The notes: generated by a model not told the origin, from the letters alone. Counted from the first letter of the stretch, positions 16,330-22,049 are shown. The stretch is 24,000 nt of DNA from Dyella marensis (GCF_049532885.1 NZ_CP064029.1:3236242-3260241), one strand, 5' to 3'. Numbers and translations are program-made.

Positions 16330-19300
16330 CTACGCCACCGCCTCGCGCGCCTTCTCCGGCAACGCCAGCCGCCTCTCCTCCGCGTCGTACTCGATCAACA
16401 GCACGCCCGAATCGTGCCTTCCGTTGATGTCCACGAAGCACGCGCCCCCGATAAACGGCTCCAGCGTCATCACCGACTTCAGCGGCGTCGCCACCACCAT
16501 CTGGAAGCCGAAGTTCTCGAAGATATTCATTGCCAGCGCGGTGAATTCGTTGTCGGCCTTGTCGAAGGCCTCGTCCAGCACCACTGGCGCGTAGCGCGGC
16601 AGATGGCCGTCGTCGCCGCCGAGCTGATAGCGCAGCGCCGCGGCCAGGCAGGTGGTGGCCAGCTTCTGGCGCTGGCCGCCGGATTTGCCGGCGCCGCTGC
16701 GGTAGACCTCAACCTGGCGCCGCGTTTCCGCCTCGATCTCCACGCCGATGAATTCCACATGCAGGCGCACGTCCAGCACCTGCTCGCGCCAGCGGCGCAG
16801 TTCCGGATCCGGTGCGCCCAGCCGCTCGACCAGCCCGCGCAGCACGGCGAACTGCGCCTCGGCGCGTTCGCGGTCCTCGGTGGGGTGCTGCATCAGCACG
16901 TCGCGCAGCTGGGCCTGGAAATCGCGCACTTCCTGCAGGCCGCGGTCGCTCACTTCGATCTGCAACAAGGTGCCGCGGTTGAACGGCACGCGCTCCAGGC
17001 TTTCGTTGACCTCTTCCATGCGCTGGCCGATCGACTTGCGCGCCTCGGTCATATGTTTCTGCAGCACCAGCAGGTCCTGCTTGCTCTGGCTCTGCAGCAG
17101 CTCGAAGAAGCGCGCCTCGTGCTTGGGCAGGCCGTCCAGCTCCAGCCGGCGCAGGCGGGCCAGGAAGCCTTCGGCGGAATCCAGGCGCGGAGTGAAATCG
17201 GCGCTGTCCTGCGGCCAGCGCCGGCAGAACGCGCGGAAGCATTCCTCCACCGACTGCACCAGCCGGTGGTCGCGTTCGGCCTGGCCGTCCAGCACCTCGT
17301 GCAGCGCGCGCTCCAGCGCGCGGAACTGGTGATCGATGTTCTCCAGCGACAGCAGCGGCTGCGCCGGCAGGCGGGCCTGCAGGCCTTCCTGCTGCAGCGG
17401 CGTCAGCGCGGCGGCGCTGGCGCGCATGGCGCAGGCTTCGCGCTGGTTTTCCACGCCGCGGCGCTCGCGCTCCACCGCGATGCGTTCGGCCGCGCTTTCC
17501 TCGTAGGACTTGGCGGCTTGCTGCCGCGCCGCGCGTTCGGCATCGAGGCGGCGGCCGAGCTCGTTGAGTCCTGCGTCGCCTTCGTTCAATTGCCGCAGCT
17601 GGTCCTCGATATCGGCCAGGCGCTGCAGCTTGGGCGCGATGTCGATCTCTTCCCATTCGATGCCGGCGAACGCGGCGGCGGCGACGCGGCGGTCGCCGTC
17701 GCGGTCGCGCTGCGCCTTCAGCTGGGCCAGCGCGTCGCCGGTGCGCGCGATGGACTGCGCCAGTTCCTGGCCTTCCTTCTCGAACAGCACCAGCTTGTCG
17801 CGGTTGTCGAAACCCAGCACCCAGTGCCGGCGGTCGTCGGCGGCGCGGCGATCGTCCTTCTCGTAGCGGTCGCCGGGATGCTTGACCTGGCCTTCGCGCG
17901 TGATCGCGCGGTCGGCCTGGCGCAGCGCCGCGGCGTTGTCGACGCAGGCGTAGTCGAAGCGGCGCGCCAGCTCGGCCTGCAGCCAGGCGCGATGCGCGTG
18001 GTCGCGCAGTTCCAGCCGATGCACCAGCGAACGGCCGTCCGGCTTGCGCTGGCCGAAGGCTTCCACGCGGCCGACGCGGTAGTACACCAGCTTGCCGCCC
18101 AGATGGGTCTTGTTGACCCAGGCCGCCACCGCCGCGTACTGCTGCTCGTCCACCAGCAGCGACAGCGCGAAGCCGTGCAGCACGCGCTCGATCGCGCCGC
18201 GCCAGGCGGCGAATTCGTCCTTTACCTGCAGCAACTCGCCGGCAAACGGCACGGTGTTCCCGGACCAGCCGAGTTCCTCGCACAGCCGCGCGCGCATGGC
18301 CTGGATCGGCGCGGGGATATTCGAAGGGTGTTTTTTCAGCGCGTCGATTTCCGCGCGCACCGCAGCGAAGCGCTGCGCGGCCTGGCCGCTGTCGCGCTTG
18401 ATCGCGTCCATCTGTTCTTCCAGCGCGCCGCCCTGGCTGCGCACGCCGCTGGCCAATTCGCGCGCCTGCCCGGCCAGTTCGGCCAGCGCGCGCGCCGTGC
18501 CCGGCAGGGTCCAGCCCAGTTCGCGGCAAGCGCTTTCGAGCTTGTCGCGGCGGCGCAGGCGCTCGTCGCGTTCGCGCTGCACCTGGGCGCGCTCGCGTTC
18601 GAGCTGGTCGACCGCGTCGCCGCCCTGCTCGCGGCGCTGGCGCTCCATATCGGCCAGGCGCTGGTCGTGGTTCTCCAGCGCCTGCTTGCGCTGCGCCTGC
18701 TCGCCTTCCAGGCCTTGCGCCAGCACATCGAGTTCGGCGCGGCGGTCGTCCAGCAGGCGCAGGCGGCGCTGTTCGCGGAACAGGTCCACGCCCTGCTGCT
18801 GCTCGCGCAGCGCGGAAGTCTCGCGGCGCAGCGCCTGCAGTTCGTCGTAGGCCTGGCGCGCCGGTGCCAGCGTCTGCACCTGCTCCCGCGCGATCACCAC
18901 GGCCTTGTGCGCGGCATCGAGCTCGGCGAAATCGGCGACGAGGCGGTCGGCCGCGGCGAAGGTTTCCGGCTCCTCCAGCATGAAGCCGCGCAGGAAATGA
19001 TTGAGGTCGCCCAGGTTCTTGGCCGACTGCGTCTTGTGCAGCAGCTTCAGCGCCATGTCGTTCTGGATGCCGAGCAGGCGGCGGAAGCGTTCCGCGTAGC
19101 CGGCGAAGGCGTCGAAATGATGCACCTCGTCGCCCAGTCTGGCCTTGAGCCGGCGCAGGTCCAGGTCGAAGCCGTCCATCTCCTTGGCCACGTCGAACGC
19201 GCGCTCGGTGACCATGTAGTGCTTACGTACGTCGGCCGCGGCCGAGCCGTTGCCGGCGATCCAGAACAGGCGGATCAGCGAGACCGTCTCGCCCAGCGCA

Positions 19301-19923
19301 TTGCGGTATTCCAGTGCCAGCGCCGACCAGGTGCTGCCCTTGCGCAGGTACTGGGTGGCGATCTCGCCGGAGTCGCTGTCGTGCTGGTCGGCCCAGGCGC
19401 CGCGCACGTACGAAGCGAGGCTGCGGTCGCGGCCGCTGCGGTCCGCTTCGCGCGCCGCGGCGTTAAAGTCGACCAGGCTGGGCGGCACCAGCAGCGCGGA
19501 CATCGCATCGAGCAGGGTCGACTTGCCGGAGCCGGAGCGGCCGACGAACAGGAAACCCTTCTCGGCGATCGGAATATCGACCAGGCCGCTGAAGGTGCCC
19601 CAGTTGAACACCTGCAGCCGGCGCATGCGGAACTGCTCATCGCGCGGGTCGGGCAGGTCGGAGAGGAACAGCGAAGGCGCGGCGGGGCGTGCCGTCTTGG
19701 TTTTCGACGGGCGCACGGGAGATGCCGCGCCGGAATCAGGTTCCGGTGCGGCAACCGCCACAGGCGGCTGGATCGGTTCAACCGGCTTCGCTGCCTTCGC
19801 TTTCTTCGGCGCGGCCCTGTCGCTGACGCTCGCGCTCTTTGCCTTCGGCTGCTTCGCCACGGCCTTACTTGCCGTTTTCTTGGCGGCGGCCGTCTTCGCC
19901 GGCGCCTTGCTTTTACTGCTCAT
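16330..19923 (-). CDS. mksB: SMC-like ATPase of the MksB/JetC family with an Ala/Lys/Pro-rich N-terminal tail, 1197 aa
   Basis: [12 protein letters not shown], then Walker [14 protein letters not shown] (about nt 19516-19542). A long E/R/Q/L-rich coiled-coil region occupies the middle. The C-terminal head has the signature [13 protein letters not shown] and Walker [13 protein letters not shown]. The ATG overlaps the upstream gene's stop by 11 nt. Confidence 0.85.
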
Positions 19924-20593: not shown

Positions 20594-22049
20594 GGCGTTT
20601 CTCTTTGATGAACCACACCAGGGGCACGCGCGCGCGGCGCCACTGCCCGTCGCCGCCCTGCCACGAAACTTCTTCCAGCTCGCCTTCGGCCACCACGCCA
20701 TGGCGCGTGGCCAGCGAGAGATAACCGATGATGCTGCCCAGGCCCTGCTCGGCCGGACGCGCGGCGAGCACTGCGCCGATCGACAGCTGTGGGGTGTCCT
20801 GCAGCAGTTCGTGCAGGTCGCGGCGCAGGCCGCGGTAATTGATTTCGGACTGCGCCACCAGCGCACCGACGCTGTCCAGCGAAATGGCGGCCGCGCCGGA
20901 GAGATCGATGCGCCCGTCGATGCGCGCATGCCGCGGATCGTGCAGGCGCCACTGCGAGAGCGAACGCAGGCGCGCGCCGGTCAGCGGCAGTTCGAGCGGC
21001 AGGCGGCGATGCGCGCCCAGTTCGTCGCGCAGCTGCAGCGCCTCGGCCTGGGCCTGCTTCAGCAGTTGATTGAGGCGGCGCTGCTCCAGGTAGCCGCGGC
21101 TCTGCACGAAGCCGCGCAAGCTGCGCGCGAAGTGCTGCATCACGTCGTGCACCTGGCCGCCGCGCTCCAGCATCACGCGGGTGAAGCCGCGCAGCAGCTG
21201 GCGCTCCTCGCGCTGCAGGCGGCGGGCGAAGCCGCGCGACAGCACGGTTTCCATGGCGGCGTCGAGCTGGTTGCTCTGCTCCACATTGTTGAGCAGTTTC
21301 CAGAACGCGCCGAAGCTGCGGCCGGCCTCGCTGTCGGCGATGACGTCGACGCCTTCGAACAGGCGGTCGAGCAGGTCGCCGCGCTGGCCTTCGTCGTCGA
21401 TGATGCGTTCGCGGAATTCGCGATTGAGGCGTTCGAAATCCTCGCGCACGCGGCGGAAATCCTCGGCCAGTTCGTCGGCGAGCTGGATCACCTCGCGCGT
21501 GCGTTCGAGCGCGCGCTGGCCGCCGACGGCGTCGAGCTTGCCGCTGCGCACGCGTTCGATCTCGGCGTCCAGGCGCGCGCGTTCGGCCAGCAGGCTGTCC
21601 AGGCGCGTGGCGGGATCGGTCTCGGTCTGCTCGGCCAGCTGCACCAGCTGCTGGATCACCAGCGACAGGCGGCTTTCGGTGGCGGCGTGGCGCGGCGAGT
21701 GCAGCCCGGCGATAAAGCGCACGGCCTGCACGGCCTGCGCCGACAGCTCGTATTCCTCTTCGCTCGAACCTTCCGGCAGGCGGCGTTCGAGATAACCCTG
21801 CGCCAGCCAGTGCGCCACGTAGGCCTGCGCGGTGCGCGGCAGCTCGGTGGGCAGCTCGGAGGCATTGATGGTGTCGAGGTGGTCCTGCAGGCGCTCATGC
21901 AGGGCCGAGGCGGGCAGCCGGCGCTCGCCGTCCTGCAACAGGGACTGCAGCAGGCCGATCAGTTCCGGCGCGTGGTCGGCGGCCAGCAGCCGCCACAGGG
22001 CTTGTTCGCGCAGCCGGCGGTAGCCGGCGATGCGGGCTTGCAGCTTCAT
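20580..22049 (-). CDS. mksF: MksF/JetA-like kleisin-type protein (DUF3375 family), 489 aa
   Basis: The N-terminus [29 protein letters not shown] ... [43 protein letters not shown] matches the DUF3375 layout as I recall it. It is the first gene of the triad, and its stop overlaps the next start by 14 nt. Confidence 0.75.

What the first reader, a model, noticed from the sequence alone, without database searches (positions are those of the whole stretch)
16330..22049. Three-gene MksFEB / JetABC-like SMC operon with no JetD/MksG nuclease, wedged between obg and rpsT
Three tightly coupled minus-strand genes have start/stop overlaps of 14 nt and 11 nt. They encode a DUF3375 (MksF/JetA)-like protein, a DUF4194 (MksE/JetB)-like protein and an SMC-like ATPase. 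The ATPase has Walker [10 protein letters not shown], signature KSGGQRQ and Walker B VVLDEAF. Anti-plasmid Wadjet/MksBEFG systems carry a fourth gene (jetD/mksG, a Toprim-type nuclease) directly after the ATPase. Here the 317 bp after the ATPase stop contain only a duplicated terminator and a MITE-like inverted repeat, followed by convergent rpsT. The locus is therefore either a chromosomal MksBEF-type condensin or a nuclease-less Wadjet derivative. A nuclease-less form would need another effector or would act only by DNA compaction or sensing. It starts 60 bp after the obg stop with no visible terminator between them, which suggests read-through from a universally essential GTPase gene. That would be unusual wiring for a defence module.
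Basis: partly seen in the sequence, partly recalled or inferred. Interest (0 to 1): 0.7.

Follow-up and report, generated by a model that had tools for sequence, protein, structure and literature searches.

The report
Nuclease-less Wadjet operon with lysine tail
This three-gene DNA-motor operon descends from an anti-plasmid Wadjet system, has cleanly lost its DNA-cutting subunit yet stays under selection, and has gained a histone-like lysine-rich tail, so it may show a defence system being converted into a chromosome-handling one.

Summary
Three overlapping minus-strand genes encode type I Wadjet JetA (DUF3375), JetB (DUF4194) and JetC (an SMC-like ATPase with intact motifs). They lie between obg and rpsT, and the window holds no JetD.

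Comparison with relatives shows what the triad is. In Rhodanobacteraceae the ancestral arrangement is obg, a short spacer, then rpsT. Only 3 of 69 informative related species carry a Jet cassette at that spot. Close relatives carry full JetABCD at exactly this site, so the window's triad is a JetABCD cassette that lost jetD by clean deletion. It is not an ancestral core condensin.

JetD loss happened at least three times at this site, and again at a second site (folE-tauE) in Xanthomonas and Stenotrophomonas. The three remaining genes are still under purifying selection (dN/dS about 0.10-0.15).

JetC in the window's clade has also gained an 80-100-residue Lys/Ala/Pro-rich N-terminal tail. Xanthomonas-type JetD-less JetC proteins carry similar tails at the C-terminus. 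None of 41 JetD-containing loci has such a tail, and none of 127 distant JetC representatives has a lysine-rich one.

The 317-bp downstream region is the native obg/rpsT spacer.

Nuclease-less Wadjet is already known. The same-site loss series and the tails appear not to have been described.

The parts
22110..23192 (-). obg (GTPase), last gene of the rplU-rpmA-obg cluster. It lies directly upstream of jetA on the same strand.
   Evidence: Pfam GTP1_OBG E 2.4e-62 and MMR_HSR1. It served as the anchor for the 80-locus census.
22050..22109 (-). 60-bp obg-jetA spacer, 88% G+C, with GGAG 10 nt before the jetA ATG. No terminator-like or sigma-70-like match.
   Evidence: JetD-less loci at this site have 52-86 bp spacers. 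JetD-containing loci have 101-220 bp spacers with CCCTCTCC...GGAGAGGG hairpins.
20580..22049 (-). jetA (kleisin, MksF-like), 489 aa
   Evidence: Pfam DUF3375 1-474/474, E 1.2e-155. PADLOC JetA1 633 bits. PDB JetA 8dk1 E 5.5e-28.
19913..20593 (-). jetB (KITE, MksE-like), 226 aa. It overlaps jetA by 14 nt.
   Evidence: Pfam DUF4194 E 4.5e-45 and PADLOC JetB1 319 bits. The start MNLHEE matches the homologues' MNLLEDE.
16330..19923 (-). jetC (SMC-like ATPase, MksB-like), 1197 aa. It overlaps jetB by 11 nt.
   Evidence: PADLOC JetC1 1397 bits, covering residues 93-1191. Pfam AAA_29 and SbcC_Walker_B. PDB JetC 8dk2/8as8. ATPase motifs are invariant across 60 homologues.
19648..19923 (-). Coding region for JetC residues 1-92. 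This is the Lys/Ala/Pro-rich N-terminal extension (15 K, 23 A, 14 P; net charge +12), followed by the conserved PSLF motif.
   Evidence: It lies outside the PADLOC model. Composition. GC3 is highest in this frame. An equivalent tail of 80-102 aa occurs in P0001-P0008, L005, L090 and L170. JetD-containing sisters have only 13-23 aa here.
16138..16277 (.). REP/MITE-like element: a perfect 32-nt inverted repeat around a 76-nt centre. A third partial arm lies at 16285-16303.
   Evidence: The RNA fold has z = -7.7. The same element occurs in the empty obg-rpsT site of L028 and after jetD in L007, L098 and L099.
16049..16124 (.). Two identical 38-bp units, each with a GCCGGC-GAAA-GCCGGC hairpin and a T-rich flank. 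Likely a bidirectional terminator shared by the convergent jetC and rpsT.
   Evidence: A homologous pair of hairpins is present in L028, L090 and L098.
15749..16012 (+). rpsT (ribosomal protein S20), convergent with jetC
   Evidence: Pfam Ribosomal_S20p E 1e-30.

Best explanation
The locus is a type I Wadjet (JetABCD) cassette that was inserted between obg and the native obg/rpsT terminator region in a Dyella-like (Rhodanobacteraceae) lineage. It later lost the JetD Toprim nuclease gene by a clean deletion.

Shown here:
- The three remaining genes are intact, translationally coupled and under purifying selection.
- The ATPase motifs are intact.
- JetC has acquired a lysine-rich tail of about 90 residues ahead of its head domain.

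Inferred:
- JetA2-JetB4-JetC4 still assembles as an ATP-driven DNA loop-extruding SMC complex but can no longer cut DNA.
- It therefore acts like an MksBEF-type condensin, or a non-cleaving DNA-handling complex, on the host chromosome. This is a 'domesticated' Wadjet.
- The basic tail adds non-specific DNA affinity at the heads. That would be tolerable only once target discrimination followed by cleavage is no longer required.
- Expression most likely comes by read-through from rplU-rpmA-obg and ends at the shared hairpin terminators.

My confidence in the identity and evolutionary origin is about 0.9. My confidence that the present role is chromosome or DNA organisation rather than residual plasmid interference is about 0.45-0.5. 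The overall figure given (0.6) is a compromise between these two.
For: Family identity.

JetD is absent from the window with no remnant.

Same-site sisters with jetD overlapping jetC:
- L006 and L007: Pfam JetD_C 1.3e-49 plus DUF3322 8.5e-44.
- D. jejuensis L089.
- L092, L095, L098-L101 and L153.

The site is normally empty: 33 empty, 12 with other inserts and 3 with Jet, out of 69 informative species.

The downstream 317 bp is the native spacer.

The neighbour-joining tree of the JetC core gives these supports:
- obg-site clade: 100%.
- N-tail clade (window, L090, L005, L170): 100%, and all four lack JetD.
- JetD-less L094 and L097 group with JetD-containing L089: 100%.
- JetD-less L091 and L093 fall inside a JetD-containing group: 99.5%.
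This implies at least three independent losses.

Purifying selection after the loss:
- window vs L090: dN/dS 0.11 (jetA), 0.15 (jetB), 0.115 (jetC core).
- window vs L005: 0.13, 0.12, 0.10.
- JetD-containing pairs: 0.05-0.10.

ATPase motifs are invariant in 60 homologues.

Tail:
- It is 80-102 aa with net charge +14 to +16 in all four context-known clade members and in P0001-P0008.
- The sequence diverges fast (29-51% identity) while composition is kept; dN/dS is about 0.38.
- Lysine enrichment runs against a 68% G+C background, and GC3 is highest in this frame.
- 0 of 41 JetD-containing loci have a tail of 40 aa or more, against 21 of 42 JetD-less loci.
- 0 of 127 distant representatives have a lysine-rich tail.

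Published framework:
Against: - No functional data exist for this or any Lysobacterales JetABC.
- The rest of the source genome (GCA_039523955.1) could not be searched. A jetD or another partner nuclease in trans is therefore not excluded.
- Half of the JetD-less loci (21 of 42) have no tail, so the tail is not required for the nuclease-less state.
- The tail/JetD association rests on only two to four independent tail origins. The Fisher p of 3e-8 ignores phylogeny.
- For C-terminal tails, the jetC-jetD overlap gives a trivial reason why JetD-containing operons cannot easily extend JetC.
- The JetB N-terminus (MNLxE...LFDGD) and the JetC position equivalent to E. coli F919 do not separate JetD-containing from JetD-less loci. 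I found no sequence sign that the JetD-docking surfaces have decayed.
- Repeated loss could also be the first step of erosion in some lineages.
- The AlphaFold model was poor in the head (pLDDT below 50 for residues 1-195 and 1097-1197). It says nothing specific about the tail.
Confidence: 0.6

Rival explanations
1. It is still an anti-plasmid Wadjet. JetABC senses small circular DNA and recruits a JetD, or another nuclease, encoded elsewhere in the genome.
For: - JetABC alone confers shape and size sensing in characterised systems (PMC10586767, read).
- The JetB N-terminal region and the JetC 'larynx' are not visibly degraded.
- Some S. maltophilia strains carry a complete Wadjet I in another island alongside the JetD-less one (PMC11680222).
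Against: - In every JetD-containing locus examined (41), jetD directly follows jetC, usually overlapping its stop.
- No orphan jetD arrangement was seen.
- A second complete system would bring its own JetABC.
- JetD-less operons persist across whole families such as Xanthomonas and Stenotrophomonas.
- Nothing nuclease-like flanks the triad in the window.
Confidence: 0.12
2. It interferes with plasmids without a nuclease. JetABC fully extrudes and compacts or sequesters small circular DNA, silencing it or impeding its segregation. The lysine tail helps to hold the DNA.
For: - Purifying selection acts on all three genes and the ATPase is intact.
- The cassette is accessory at this site, as defence genes typically are.
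- The window carries an integrated element with a plasmid-type RepA about 14 kb away, so mobile DNA is present in this genome.
Against: - No precedent is known to me for cleavage-independent Wadjet restriction.
- Deleting jetD inactivates restriction in tested systems (as cited in PMC11680222).
- Non-specific basic tails would reduce rather than sharpen discrimination between plasmid and chromosome (inference).
Confidence: 0.15
3. It is a decaying remnant. JetD was lost recently and the remaining genes are non-functional passengers kept open by chance.
For: - JetD loss is frequent in this clade.
- Authors of the S. maltophilia survey called the JetD-less form 'probably inactive' (PMC11680222).
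Against: - dN/dS is 0.10-0.15 over dS 0.25-1.2 between three to four species-level members.
- 5.7 kb of intact, overlapping ORFs persist in every member.
- ATPase motifs are invariant.
- Lysine-rich tail composition is maintained despite rapid sequence turnover.
Confidence: 0.04
4. It is an ordinary ancestral housekeeping MksBEF condensin, vertically inherited at this position in all relatives.
For: - A three-gene operon without a nuclease sits next to essential genes.
- In Lysobacteraceae a JetD-less triad is indeed syntenic and near-universal at folE-tauE.
Against: - At the obg-rpsT site only 3 of 69 informative species have it, and 33 are empty.
- The nearest relatives at the same site have jetD.
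- Sequence membership is type I JetABC.
- P. aeruginosa MksBEF is reported to share no detectable sequence similarity with MksBEFG (10.1101/2020.05.18.101659).
Confidence: 0.03

Closest known systems
Type I Wadjet / JetABCD (E. coli GF4-3, P. aeruginosa PA14; also called MksBEFG or EptABCD)
   Same: - JetA, JetB and JetC are full-length members by Pfam, PADLOC and PDB sequence matches.
- Gene order is the same and the reading frames overlap.
- Walker A, Walker B and signature motifs are intact.
- Sister loci at the same chromosomal site are complete JetABCD.
   Different: - There is no JetD, so the defining effector is missing.
- JetC carries a lysine-rich N-terminal extension of about 90 aa. 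This is absent from all 41 JetD-containing loci and from 127 distant representatives.
Conserved JetD-less 'Wadjet I' of Stenotrophomonas maltophilia and Xanthomonas (PMC11680222; loci L085, L087, L172 here)
   Same: - It is a type I JetABC without JetD under strong conservation. JetC is 64-68% identical.
- It sits directly after a housekeeping gene.
- JetC carries a Lys/Arg/Ala/Pro-rich tail.
   Different: - The chromosomal site differs (folE-JetABC-tauE-ychJ).
- The tail is at the C-terminus (58-225 aa), not the N-terminus.
- The triad is core in that family but accessory in the window's family.
- The loss events are independent.
MksBEF condensin of Pseudomonas aeruginosa (Petrushenko 2011; PMC7485682; 10.1101/2020.05.18.101659)
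   Same: It is a three-gene mksF-mksE-mksB-type operon with no nuclease. It is the best-studied case in which such a complex organises and helps to segregate the chromosome. It has been proposed to derive from Wadjet by JetD loss (PMC10586767).
   Different: - P. aeruginosa MksBEF is reported to share no detectable sequence similarity with MksBEFG, whereas the window's proteins are unmistakable type I Jet proteins.
- I had no P. aeruginosa sequence, so direct comparison was not possible.
- A functional equivalence is inferred, not shown.
MukBEF of Enterobacteria
   Same: It shares the SMC-kleisin-KITE architecture and a dimer-of-dimers organisation (literature).
   Different: No Pfam MukB, MukE or MukF match was found. 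MukBEF is a far more distant lineage.
Lysine/alanine/proline-rich 'histone H1-like' tails of bacterial DNA-binding proteins (AlgP of P. aeruginosa, PMC9239181; mycobacterial HupB and actinobacterial topoisomerase I tails, from my own knowledge)
   Same: A low-complexity K/A/P-rich, strongly basic, fast-evolving extension is attached to a DNA-handling protein.
   Different: - There is no sequence homology and no Pfam hit.
- I have not seen such a tail described on an SMC-family ATPase (searches found none).
- DNA binding by this tail is untested.

Membership tests
Type I Wadjet (JetABCD) | JetA: DUF3375 kleisin | tested here: met
   Pfam PF11855, E 1.2e-155, 1-474/474. PADLOC JetA1 633 bits.
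Type I Wadjet (JetABCD) | JetB: DUF4194 KITE subunit | tested here: met
   Pfam PF13835, E 4.5e-45. PADLOC JetB1 319 bits.
Type I Wadjet (JetABCD) | JetC: SMC-like ATPase with Walker A, signature and Walker B motifs, long coiled coil and hinge | tested here: met
   PADLOC JetC1 1397 bits. PDB JetC 8dk2 E 1.7e-77. Motifs verified. The AlphaFold model shows two long helical arms (320-531, 708-976) around a globular hinge.
Type I Wadjet (JetABCD) | JetD: DUF3322 plus JetD_C (Toprim) nuclease encoded directly after jetC | tested here: not met
   No tblastn hit in the window at E<10 and no HMM hit. jetC is followed by 317 bp of native spacer and then rpsT. The rest of the genome was not searchable.
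Type I Wadjet (JetABCD) | Restriction of small circular plasmids by ATP-dependent cleavage | not testable with these tools
   This needs transformation or plasmid-stability assays and in vitro cleavage.
MksBEF condensin (P. aeruginosa type) | Three-gene mksF-mksE-mksB operon with no fourth (nuclease) gene | tested here: met
MksBEF condensin (P. aeruginosa type) | Sequence membership in the P. aeruginosa MksBEF lineage | tested here: inconclusive
   No reference sequence was available. Pfam MksE (PF21980) does not hit the window's JetB at E<=0.01, although some relatives carry weak precomputed hits. The literature reports that MksBEF and MksBEFG share no sequence similarity.
MksBEF condensin (P. 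aeruginosa type) | Fixed (core) in the lineage at a conserved position | tested here: not met
   A Jet cassette is present after obg in only 3 of 69 informative related species. In contrast it is core at folE-tauE in Lysobacteraceae.
MksBEF condensin (P. aeruginosa type) | Contribution to chromosome organisation or segregation | not testable with these tools
   This needs Hi-C, microscopy and genetics.
MukBEF | MukB, MukE and MukF domain families | tested here: not met
   No Muk family appears among the Pfam or NCBIfam hits.
Histone H1-like basic tail | Low-complexity Lys/Ala/Pro-rich, strongly basic, disordered segment that binds DNA | tested here: inconclusive
   The composition fits (15 K, 23 A, 14 P of 92; net +12). 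DSSP finds no secondary structure in residues 1-92, but the neighbouring head is equally low in confidence. There is no Pfam match. DNA binding is untested.

The most novel reading that the evidence does not exclude
Recurrent JetD loss in Lysobacterales, at two fixed chromosomal sites with JetD-containing sisters still extant, is Wadjet-to-condensin domestication caught in progress. Gain of a lysine-rich tail on the JetC head, N-terminal in the window's clade and C-terminal in the Xanthomonas/Stenotrophomonas clade, is a convergent adaptive signature of that switch. The tail would raise non-specific chromosomal DNA binding once plasmid discrimination is no longer needed.
Probability: 0.3. Interest if true: 0.7.

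Novelty: new variant of a known kind. Interest (0 to 1): 0.5.

Why it matters
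The origin of MksBEF and MukBEF from Wadjet by loss of the nuclease is currently a hypothesis (PMC10586767; 10.1101/2025.03.10.642339). It has also been doubted because P. aeruginosa MksBEF shares no sequence similarity with MksBEFG (10.1101/2020.05.18.101659).

The lineage in this window supplies what has been missing: unmistakable type I JetABC operons that lost JetD recently. They sit at the same chromosomal site as surviving JetABCD sisters that are 74-78% identical in JetC, and they remain under purifying selection.

Such pairs allow a direct test of what a Wadjet motor does once it cannot cut. One example is Dyella jejuensis (with JetD) against the window's strain or GCA_026283965.1 (without JetD). 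The pairs would also show which changes accompany the switch.

The lysine-rich tails give a simple sequence marker to examine. They also give a concrete biochemical hypothesis, namely tail-dependent DNA affinity, loading or residence time.

Practically, defence-system annotators call these triads 'incomplete Wadjet'. That label probably misdescribes a conserved chromosomal function in Xanthomonas, Stenotrophomonas and their relatives.

Tried and rejected
1. JetD remnants in the window. tblastn at E<10 and a JetD HMM on all ORFs of 60 aa or more found nothing.
2. The downstream repeats as a deletion scar or MITE insertion. Rejected, because the same element and hairpins are present in an empty site and after jetD in relatives.
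3. Decay of the JetD-docking features.
   - The JetB IFDR motif could not be mapped, because JetB has no PDB phmmer hit.
   - JetB N-termini are conserved in JetD-containing and JetD-less loci alike.
   - The residue aligned to E. coli JetC F919 is Q in both JetD-containing and JetD-less Dyella loci, and P in the window. It does not discriminate.
4. A shorter upstream spacer as a general mark of JetD loss. It holds at the obg site (52-86 bp against 101-220 bp) but fails at the folE site.
5. An AlphaFold2 model of JetC to show tail disorder. The head itself came out at pLDDT below 50, so the model is uninformative for the tail. I ran no fold search.
6. Pfam on the isolated tails gave no hits. 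Rfam on the window gave no hits.
7. Alternative fourth genes after jetC in JetD-less loci. Only unrelated neighbours were found: rpsT, asparaginase/cutC, tauE, a TonB receptor, a porin, and in L005 a 589-aa membrane protein without a Pfam match.
8. A jetD elsewhere in the source genome.
9. Literature on lysine-rich tails of MksB/JetC, or on MksB in Xanthomonas. Nothing was found. The library lacks most subscription papers.

Full report
**1. What is in the window**

The window is 65-71% G+C over most of its length. The minus strand carries rplU (23665-23979), rpmA (23383-23640) and obg (22110-23192), followed by three overlapping genes. On the plus strand the convergent rpsT (15749-16012) comes next. 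After it, again on the minus strand, come murJ, ribF, ileS, lspA, ispH and hipBA.

The three genes are:
- jetA, 20580-22049, 489 aa: Pfam DUF3375 E 1.2e-155 over the whole model; PADLOC JetA1 633 bits.
- jetB, 19913-20593, 226 aa: DUF4194 E 4.5e-45; PADLOC JetB1 319 bits.
- jetC, 16330-19923, 1197 aa: AAA_29 and SbcC_Walker_B; PADLOC JetC1 1397 bits.

JetC aligns over residues 96-1179 with the solved JetC chains of P. aeruginosa PA14 (8dk2, E 1.7e-77) and E. coli GF4-3 (8as8, E 8.6e-68). JetA aligns with the solved JetA chains.

No JetD is encoded anywhere in the 24 kb.

**2. Where the window comes from, and whether the triad is core or accessory**

The exact JetC protein is encoded on a 474-kb contig of assembly GCA_039523955.1 and on three metagenomic contigs with the same gene order.

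The 80 best loci are Rhodanobacteraceae and other Lysobacterales: Dyella, Frateuria, Rhodanobacter, Luteibacter, Dokdonella and others. In the 69 loci with enough sequence:
- 33 have obg followed within 0.07-0.7 kb by convergent rpsT. This is the empty, evidently ancestral state.
- 12 have other inserts of 0.8-5 kb. Examples are asparaginase plus cutC in D. dinghuensis and D. psychrodurans, and asparaginase alone in Frateuria.
- 20 have no rpsT within 6-10 kb. These are mostly Rhodanobacter.
- 1 is rearranged.
- Only 3 carry Jet genes (Dyella sp. OK004 and two Dyella MAGs).

The triad is therefore accessory at this position. The reading 'ordinary housekeeping condensin in all relatives' is refuted for this site.

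**3. The triad is a JetABCD cassette that lost JetD**

Two of those three genomes (L006, L007) have a fourth gene overlapping the jetC stop. It matches Pfam JetD_C (1.3e-49) and DUF3322 (8.5e-44).

A metagenome scan with a JetC alignment, several exact-protein look-ups and my own annotation gave about 90 further loci. Every member of the JetC clade that contains the window lies at the same obg-rpsT site. The states found there are:
- JetABCD-asparaginase-cutC: L006, L007, D. jejuensis L089, L092, L095, L101, L153.
- JetABCD alone: L098-L100.
- JetABC-asparaginase-cutC, a precise JetD deletion: L094, L097.
- JetABC alone: L091, L093, and the window with L090, L005 and L170.

In a neighbour-joining tree of the JetC core with 200 bootstraps:
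- The obg-site clade has 100% support.
- The window's sub-clade (window, L090, L005, L170) has 100% support, and all four members lack JetD.
- JetD-less L094 and L097 group with JetD-containing L089 (100%).
- JetD-less L091 and L093 fall inside a JetD-containing group (99.5%).

With JetD ancestral at the site, at least three independent losses are needed.

The 317 bp after jetC is not a scar. The same inverted-repeat element followed by two GCCGGC-TTTC-GCCGGC hairpins fills the empty site of L028, and it follows jetD in L098. The cassette therefore sits between the obg stop and the native, probably bidirectional, terminator region. In the window JetD has simply been excised.

**4. The nuclease-less operon is maintained by selection**

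Nei-Gojobori estimates:

| Pair | jetA | jetB | jetC core | dS |
|---|---|---|---|---|
| window vs L090 | 0.11 | 0.15 | 0.115 | about 0.25 |
| window vs L005 | 0.13 | 0.12 | 0.10 | 0.7-1.2 |
| JetD-containing pairs | 0.05-0.10 (all three genes) | | | |
| L091 vs L093 (JetD-less, no tail) | 0.02-0.05 (all three genes) | | | |

All Walker A, Walker B, signature and neighbouring residues are invariant in a 60-sequence alignment. A decaying remnant is therefore very unlikely.

**5. A second, older series of losses**

JetC homologues 52-68% identical to the window's lie in a different conserved context, folE-jetA-jetB-jetC, then convergent tauE and ychJ. This holds in Xanthomonas campestris (L085), Stenotrophomonas (L087), genome CP130832 (L172) and some 40 metagenomic loci.

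Nearly all of these lack JetD. However, L116 and L117 keep a jetD between jetC and tauE. Their JetD branches where their JetC does, which argues for vertical retention and repeated loss elsewhere.

A third site, gltB-gltD-jetABC without JetD, occurs in Dyella tabacisoli. Coralloluteibacterium has a complete JetABCD next to SIR2 and helicase genes.

The literature already records part of this. S. maltophilia carries a conserved jetD-less 'Wadjet I', called 'probably inactive' (PMC11680222). Reviews propose that MksBEF arose from JetABCD by JetD loss (PMC10586767; 10.1101/2025.03.10.642339). An earlier study doubted common ancestry because P. aeruginosa MksBEF and MksBEFG show no sequence similarity (10.1101/2020.05.18.101659).

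**6. The lysine-rich tail**

The PADLOC JetC model starts at residue 93 of the window's protein. Residues 1-92 read [32 protein letters not shown]... They contain 15 Lys, 23 Ala and 14 Pro, with net charge +12.

The tail occurs as follows:
- It is 80-102 aa in the eight closest database homologues and in L005, L090 and L170, with net charge +14 to +16.
- JetD-containing sisters start with a homologous but short basic peptide, for example MSAKPKAVRKPAKQDTT, 13-23 aa. The tail is therefore an in-frame expansion just upstream of a conserved P-S-L-F motif.

Evidence that the tail is a translated, compositionally constrained, low-complexity segment:
- The sequence turns over fast (29-51% identity; dN/dS about 0.38) while composition is kept.
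- GC3 is highest in the JetC frame.
- Lysine, which has AT-rich codons, is enriched in a 68% G+C genome.

In the Xanthomonas/Stenotrophomonas clade JetC instead carries a C-terminal Lys/Arg/Ala/Pro-rich tail of 58-225 aa. Both termini of an SMC-type ATPase lie in the head.

Counts over all loci where the downstream region could be judged:
- 0 of 41 JetD-containing loci have a terminal extension of 40 aa or more.
- 21 of 42 JetD-less loci have one, and 18 of those are clearly basic.

Among 127 full-length representatives of the wider family (32-53% identity), ten have extensions of 40 aa or more. None is lysine-rich.

Caveats on the association:
- The loci are not independent. There are probably only two to four tail origins.
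- Half of the JetD-less loci have no tail.
- The jetC-jetD overlap may by itself prevent C-terminal extension in JetD-containing operons.

The association is therefore suggestive, not established.

**7. Expression**

The obg-jetA spacer is 60 bp and 88% G+C. It has a GGAG 10 nt before the ATG and no terminator-like or sigma-70-like match. The only terminator-like hairpins lie after jetC.

It is not peculiar to the nuclease-less state. JetD-containing relatives also sit directly after obg, and after folE at the other site.

At the obg site the JetD-less loci have shorter spacers (52-86 bp) than the JetD-containing ones (101-220 bp, with CCCTCTCC/GGAGAGGG hairpins). The folE site shows no such split.

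**8. How it most likely works**

Shown: type I JetA/JetB/JetC identity, intact ATPase motifs, translational coupling, loss of JetD by deletion, purifying selection afterwards, and tail gain.

Established for the family: JetABC is a dimer-of-dimers SMC motor that extrudes DNA. JetD docks on the JetC 'larynx' and the JetB N-terminus and performs the cut. Without JetD there is no restriction.

Inferred: the complex in this organism still loads on and extrudes DNA but cannot cleave it. It therefore behaves as an MksBEF-like chromosome-organising or back-up segregation complex. The basic tail increases non-specific DNA contact at the heads.

Rivals: a nuclease supplied in trans (0.12), cleavage-independent plasmid interference (0.15), a decaying remnant (0.04), and an ancestral core condensin (0.03).

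I looked for decay of the JetD-contact features and found none that discriminates. This keeps the in-trans rival alive.

**9. Verdict**

- The finding is real and correctly assigned to its family.
- Its general kind, a nuclease-less Wadjet or MksBEF-like triad, is known.
- Three things appear not to have been described, as far as I could search: the demonstration that this one is a recent JetD-deletion derivative at a site shared with intact JetABCD sisters; the recurrence of that loss with sustained selection on JetABC; and the lysine-rich JetC tails confined to JetD-less lineages.
- I rate it a new variant of a known kind, of moderate interest. Its main value is as a natural series for testing the Wadjet-to-condensin domestication hypothesis.

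Noticed in passing
window 1-5062: A low-G+C (52-57%) integrated element. It carries a GmrSD_C-domain ORF (39-608), a plasmid-type RepA_C protein (1568-2515) and a tyrosine integrase (3813-4943). It is bounded by a tRNA 3'-end fragment (about 5030-5062, ...GGTTCGATTCC...CCA), but ARAGORN finds no complete tRNA. A plasmid-like integrative element therefore sits about 11 kb from a Wadjet that cannot cut.
   Followed up: partly
window 5188-6406: Two adjacent RebB (R-body 'killing trait') homologues, at 5188-6021 (weak, E 0.0026) and 6089-6406 (E 4e-5).
   Followed up: no
window 6474-8146: A HipA (429 aa) and HipB-like HTH toxin-antitoxin pair next to ispH. A HipBA pair also sits just upstream of folE-jetABC in genome CP130832 (L172 1462-2975).
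   Followed up: no
window 19650-19670 (JetC residues 85-88) and the JetC N-termini of all loci: A conserved P-[SAGT]-L-F motif immediately precedes the JetC head in every Lysobacterales JetC, with or without JetD. Several distant JetC representatives (P0163, P0170, P0181, P0197, P0252, P0266) have acidic C-terminal extensions that end in ...SLF. The function is unknown. It looks like a short linear docking motif.
   Followed up: partly
window 16138-16303; L007 9783-9893; L028 11130-11248; L098 10622-10748; L094 5669-5688: A REP/MITE-like element of about 140 bp recurs in Dyella-type genomes in and around the obg-rpsT intergenic region. It has perfect 32-nt arms built on ATTCCGGCGNAGGCCGGAAT. 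As RNA it folds into one long hairpin (z = -7.7).
   Followed up: partly
L006 10976-11155, L089, L092, L101, L153 (obg-jetA spacers): JetD-containing loci at the obg site have 101-220 bp spacers with one or two CCCTCTCC...GGAGAGGG hairpins flanking an AT-richer stretch. JetD-less loci at this site have 52-86 bp. The pattern does not hold at the folE site.
   Followed up: partly
L085 6035-7000 (Xanthomonas campestris): jetB and jetC are separated by about 970 bp containing microsatellites (GCAACG x10.7, AGCAGT x4.5, GCAACAC x7). In most other loci these two genes overlap or lie within about 90 bp of each other. L104 has a similar gap of about 1.1 kb.
   Followed up: no
L089 4467-5828 (Dyella jejuensis): A 453-aa gene on the opposite strand (faint Tricorn_N hit) is inserted between jetA and jetB of an otherwise complete JetABCD operon.
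   Followed up: no
L116 7779-9005, L117 9513-10715: Two metagenomic loci keep jetD at the folE-tauE site, where all other members lack it. Their JetD branches in parallel with their JetC. This suggests that JetD was ancestral there too and was lost repeatedly.
   Followed up: partly
L174 3772-9399 (Dyella tabacisoli); L173 (D. silvatica): A third chromosomal context in Rhodanobacteraceae: gltB-gltD-jetA-jetB-jetC with no JetD and no tail. Some Dyella may therefore carry a JetD-less triad elsewhere in addition to, or instead of, the obg-site cassette.
   Followed up: partly
L005 16986-18755 (Dyella sp. OK004): A 589-aa polytopic membrane protein with no Pfam match lies between jetC and rpsT. 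It is not conserved in the window, L090 or L170.
   Followed up: no
window JetC residue P1014 (about 16882-16884): The position aligned to E. coli JetC F919, which inserts into the JetD aCAP pocket, is Pro in the window and L090. It is Gln in other Dyella loci with or without JetD, and Trp, Lys or Arg in more distant JetD-containing clades. The alignment is of low confidence here.
   Followed up: partly
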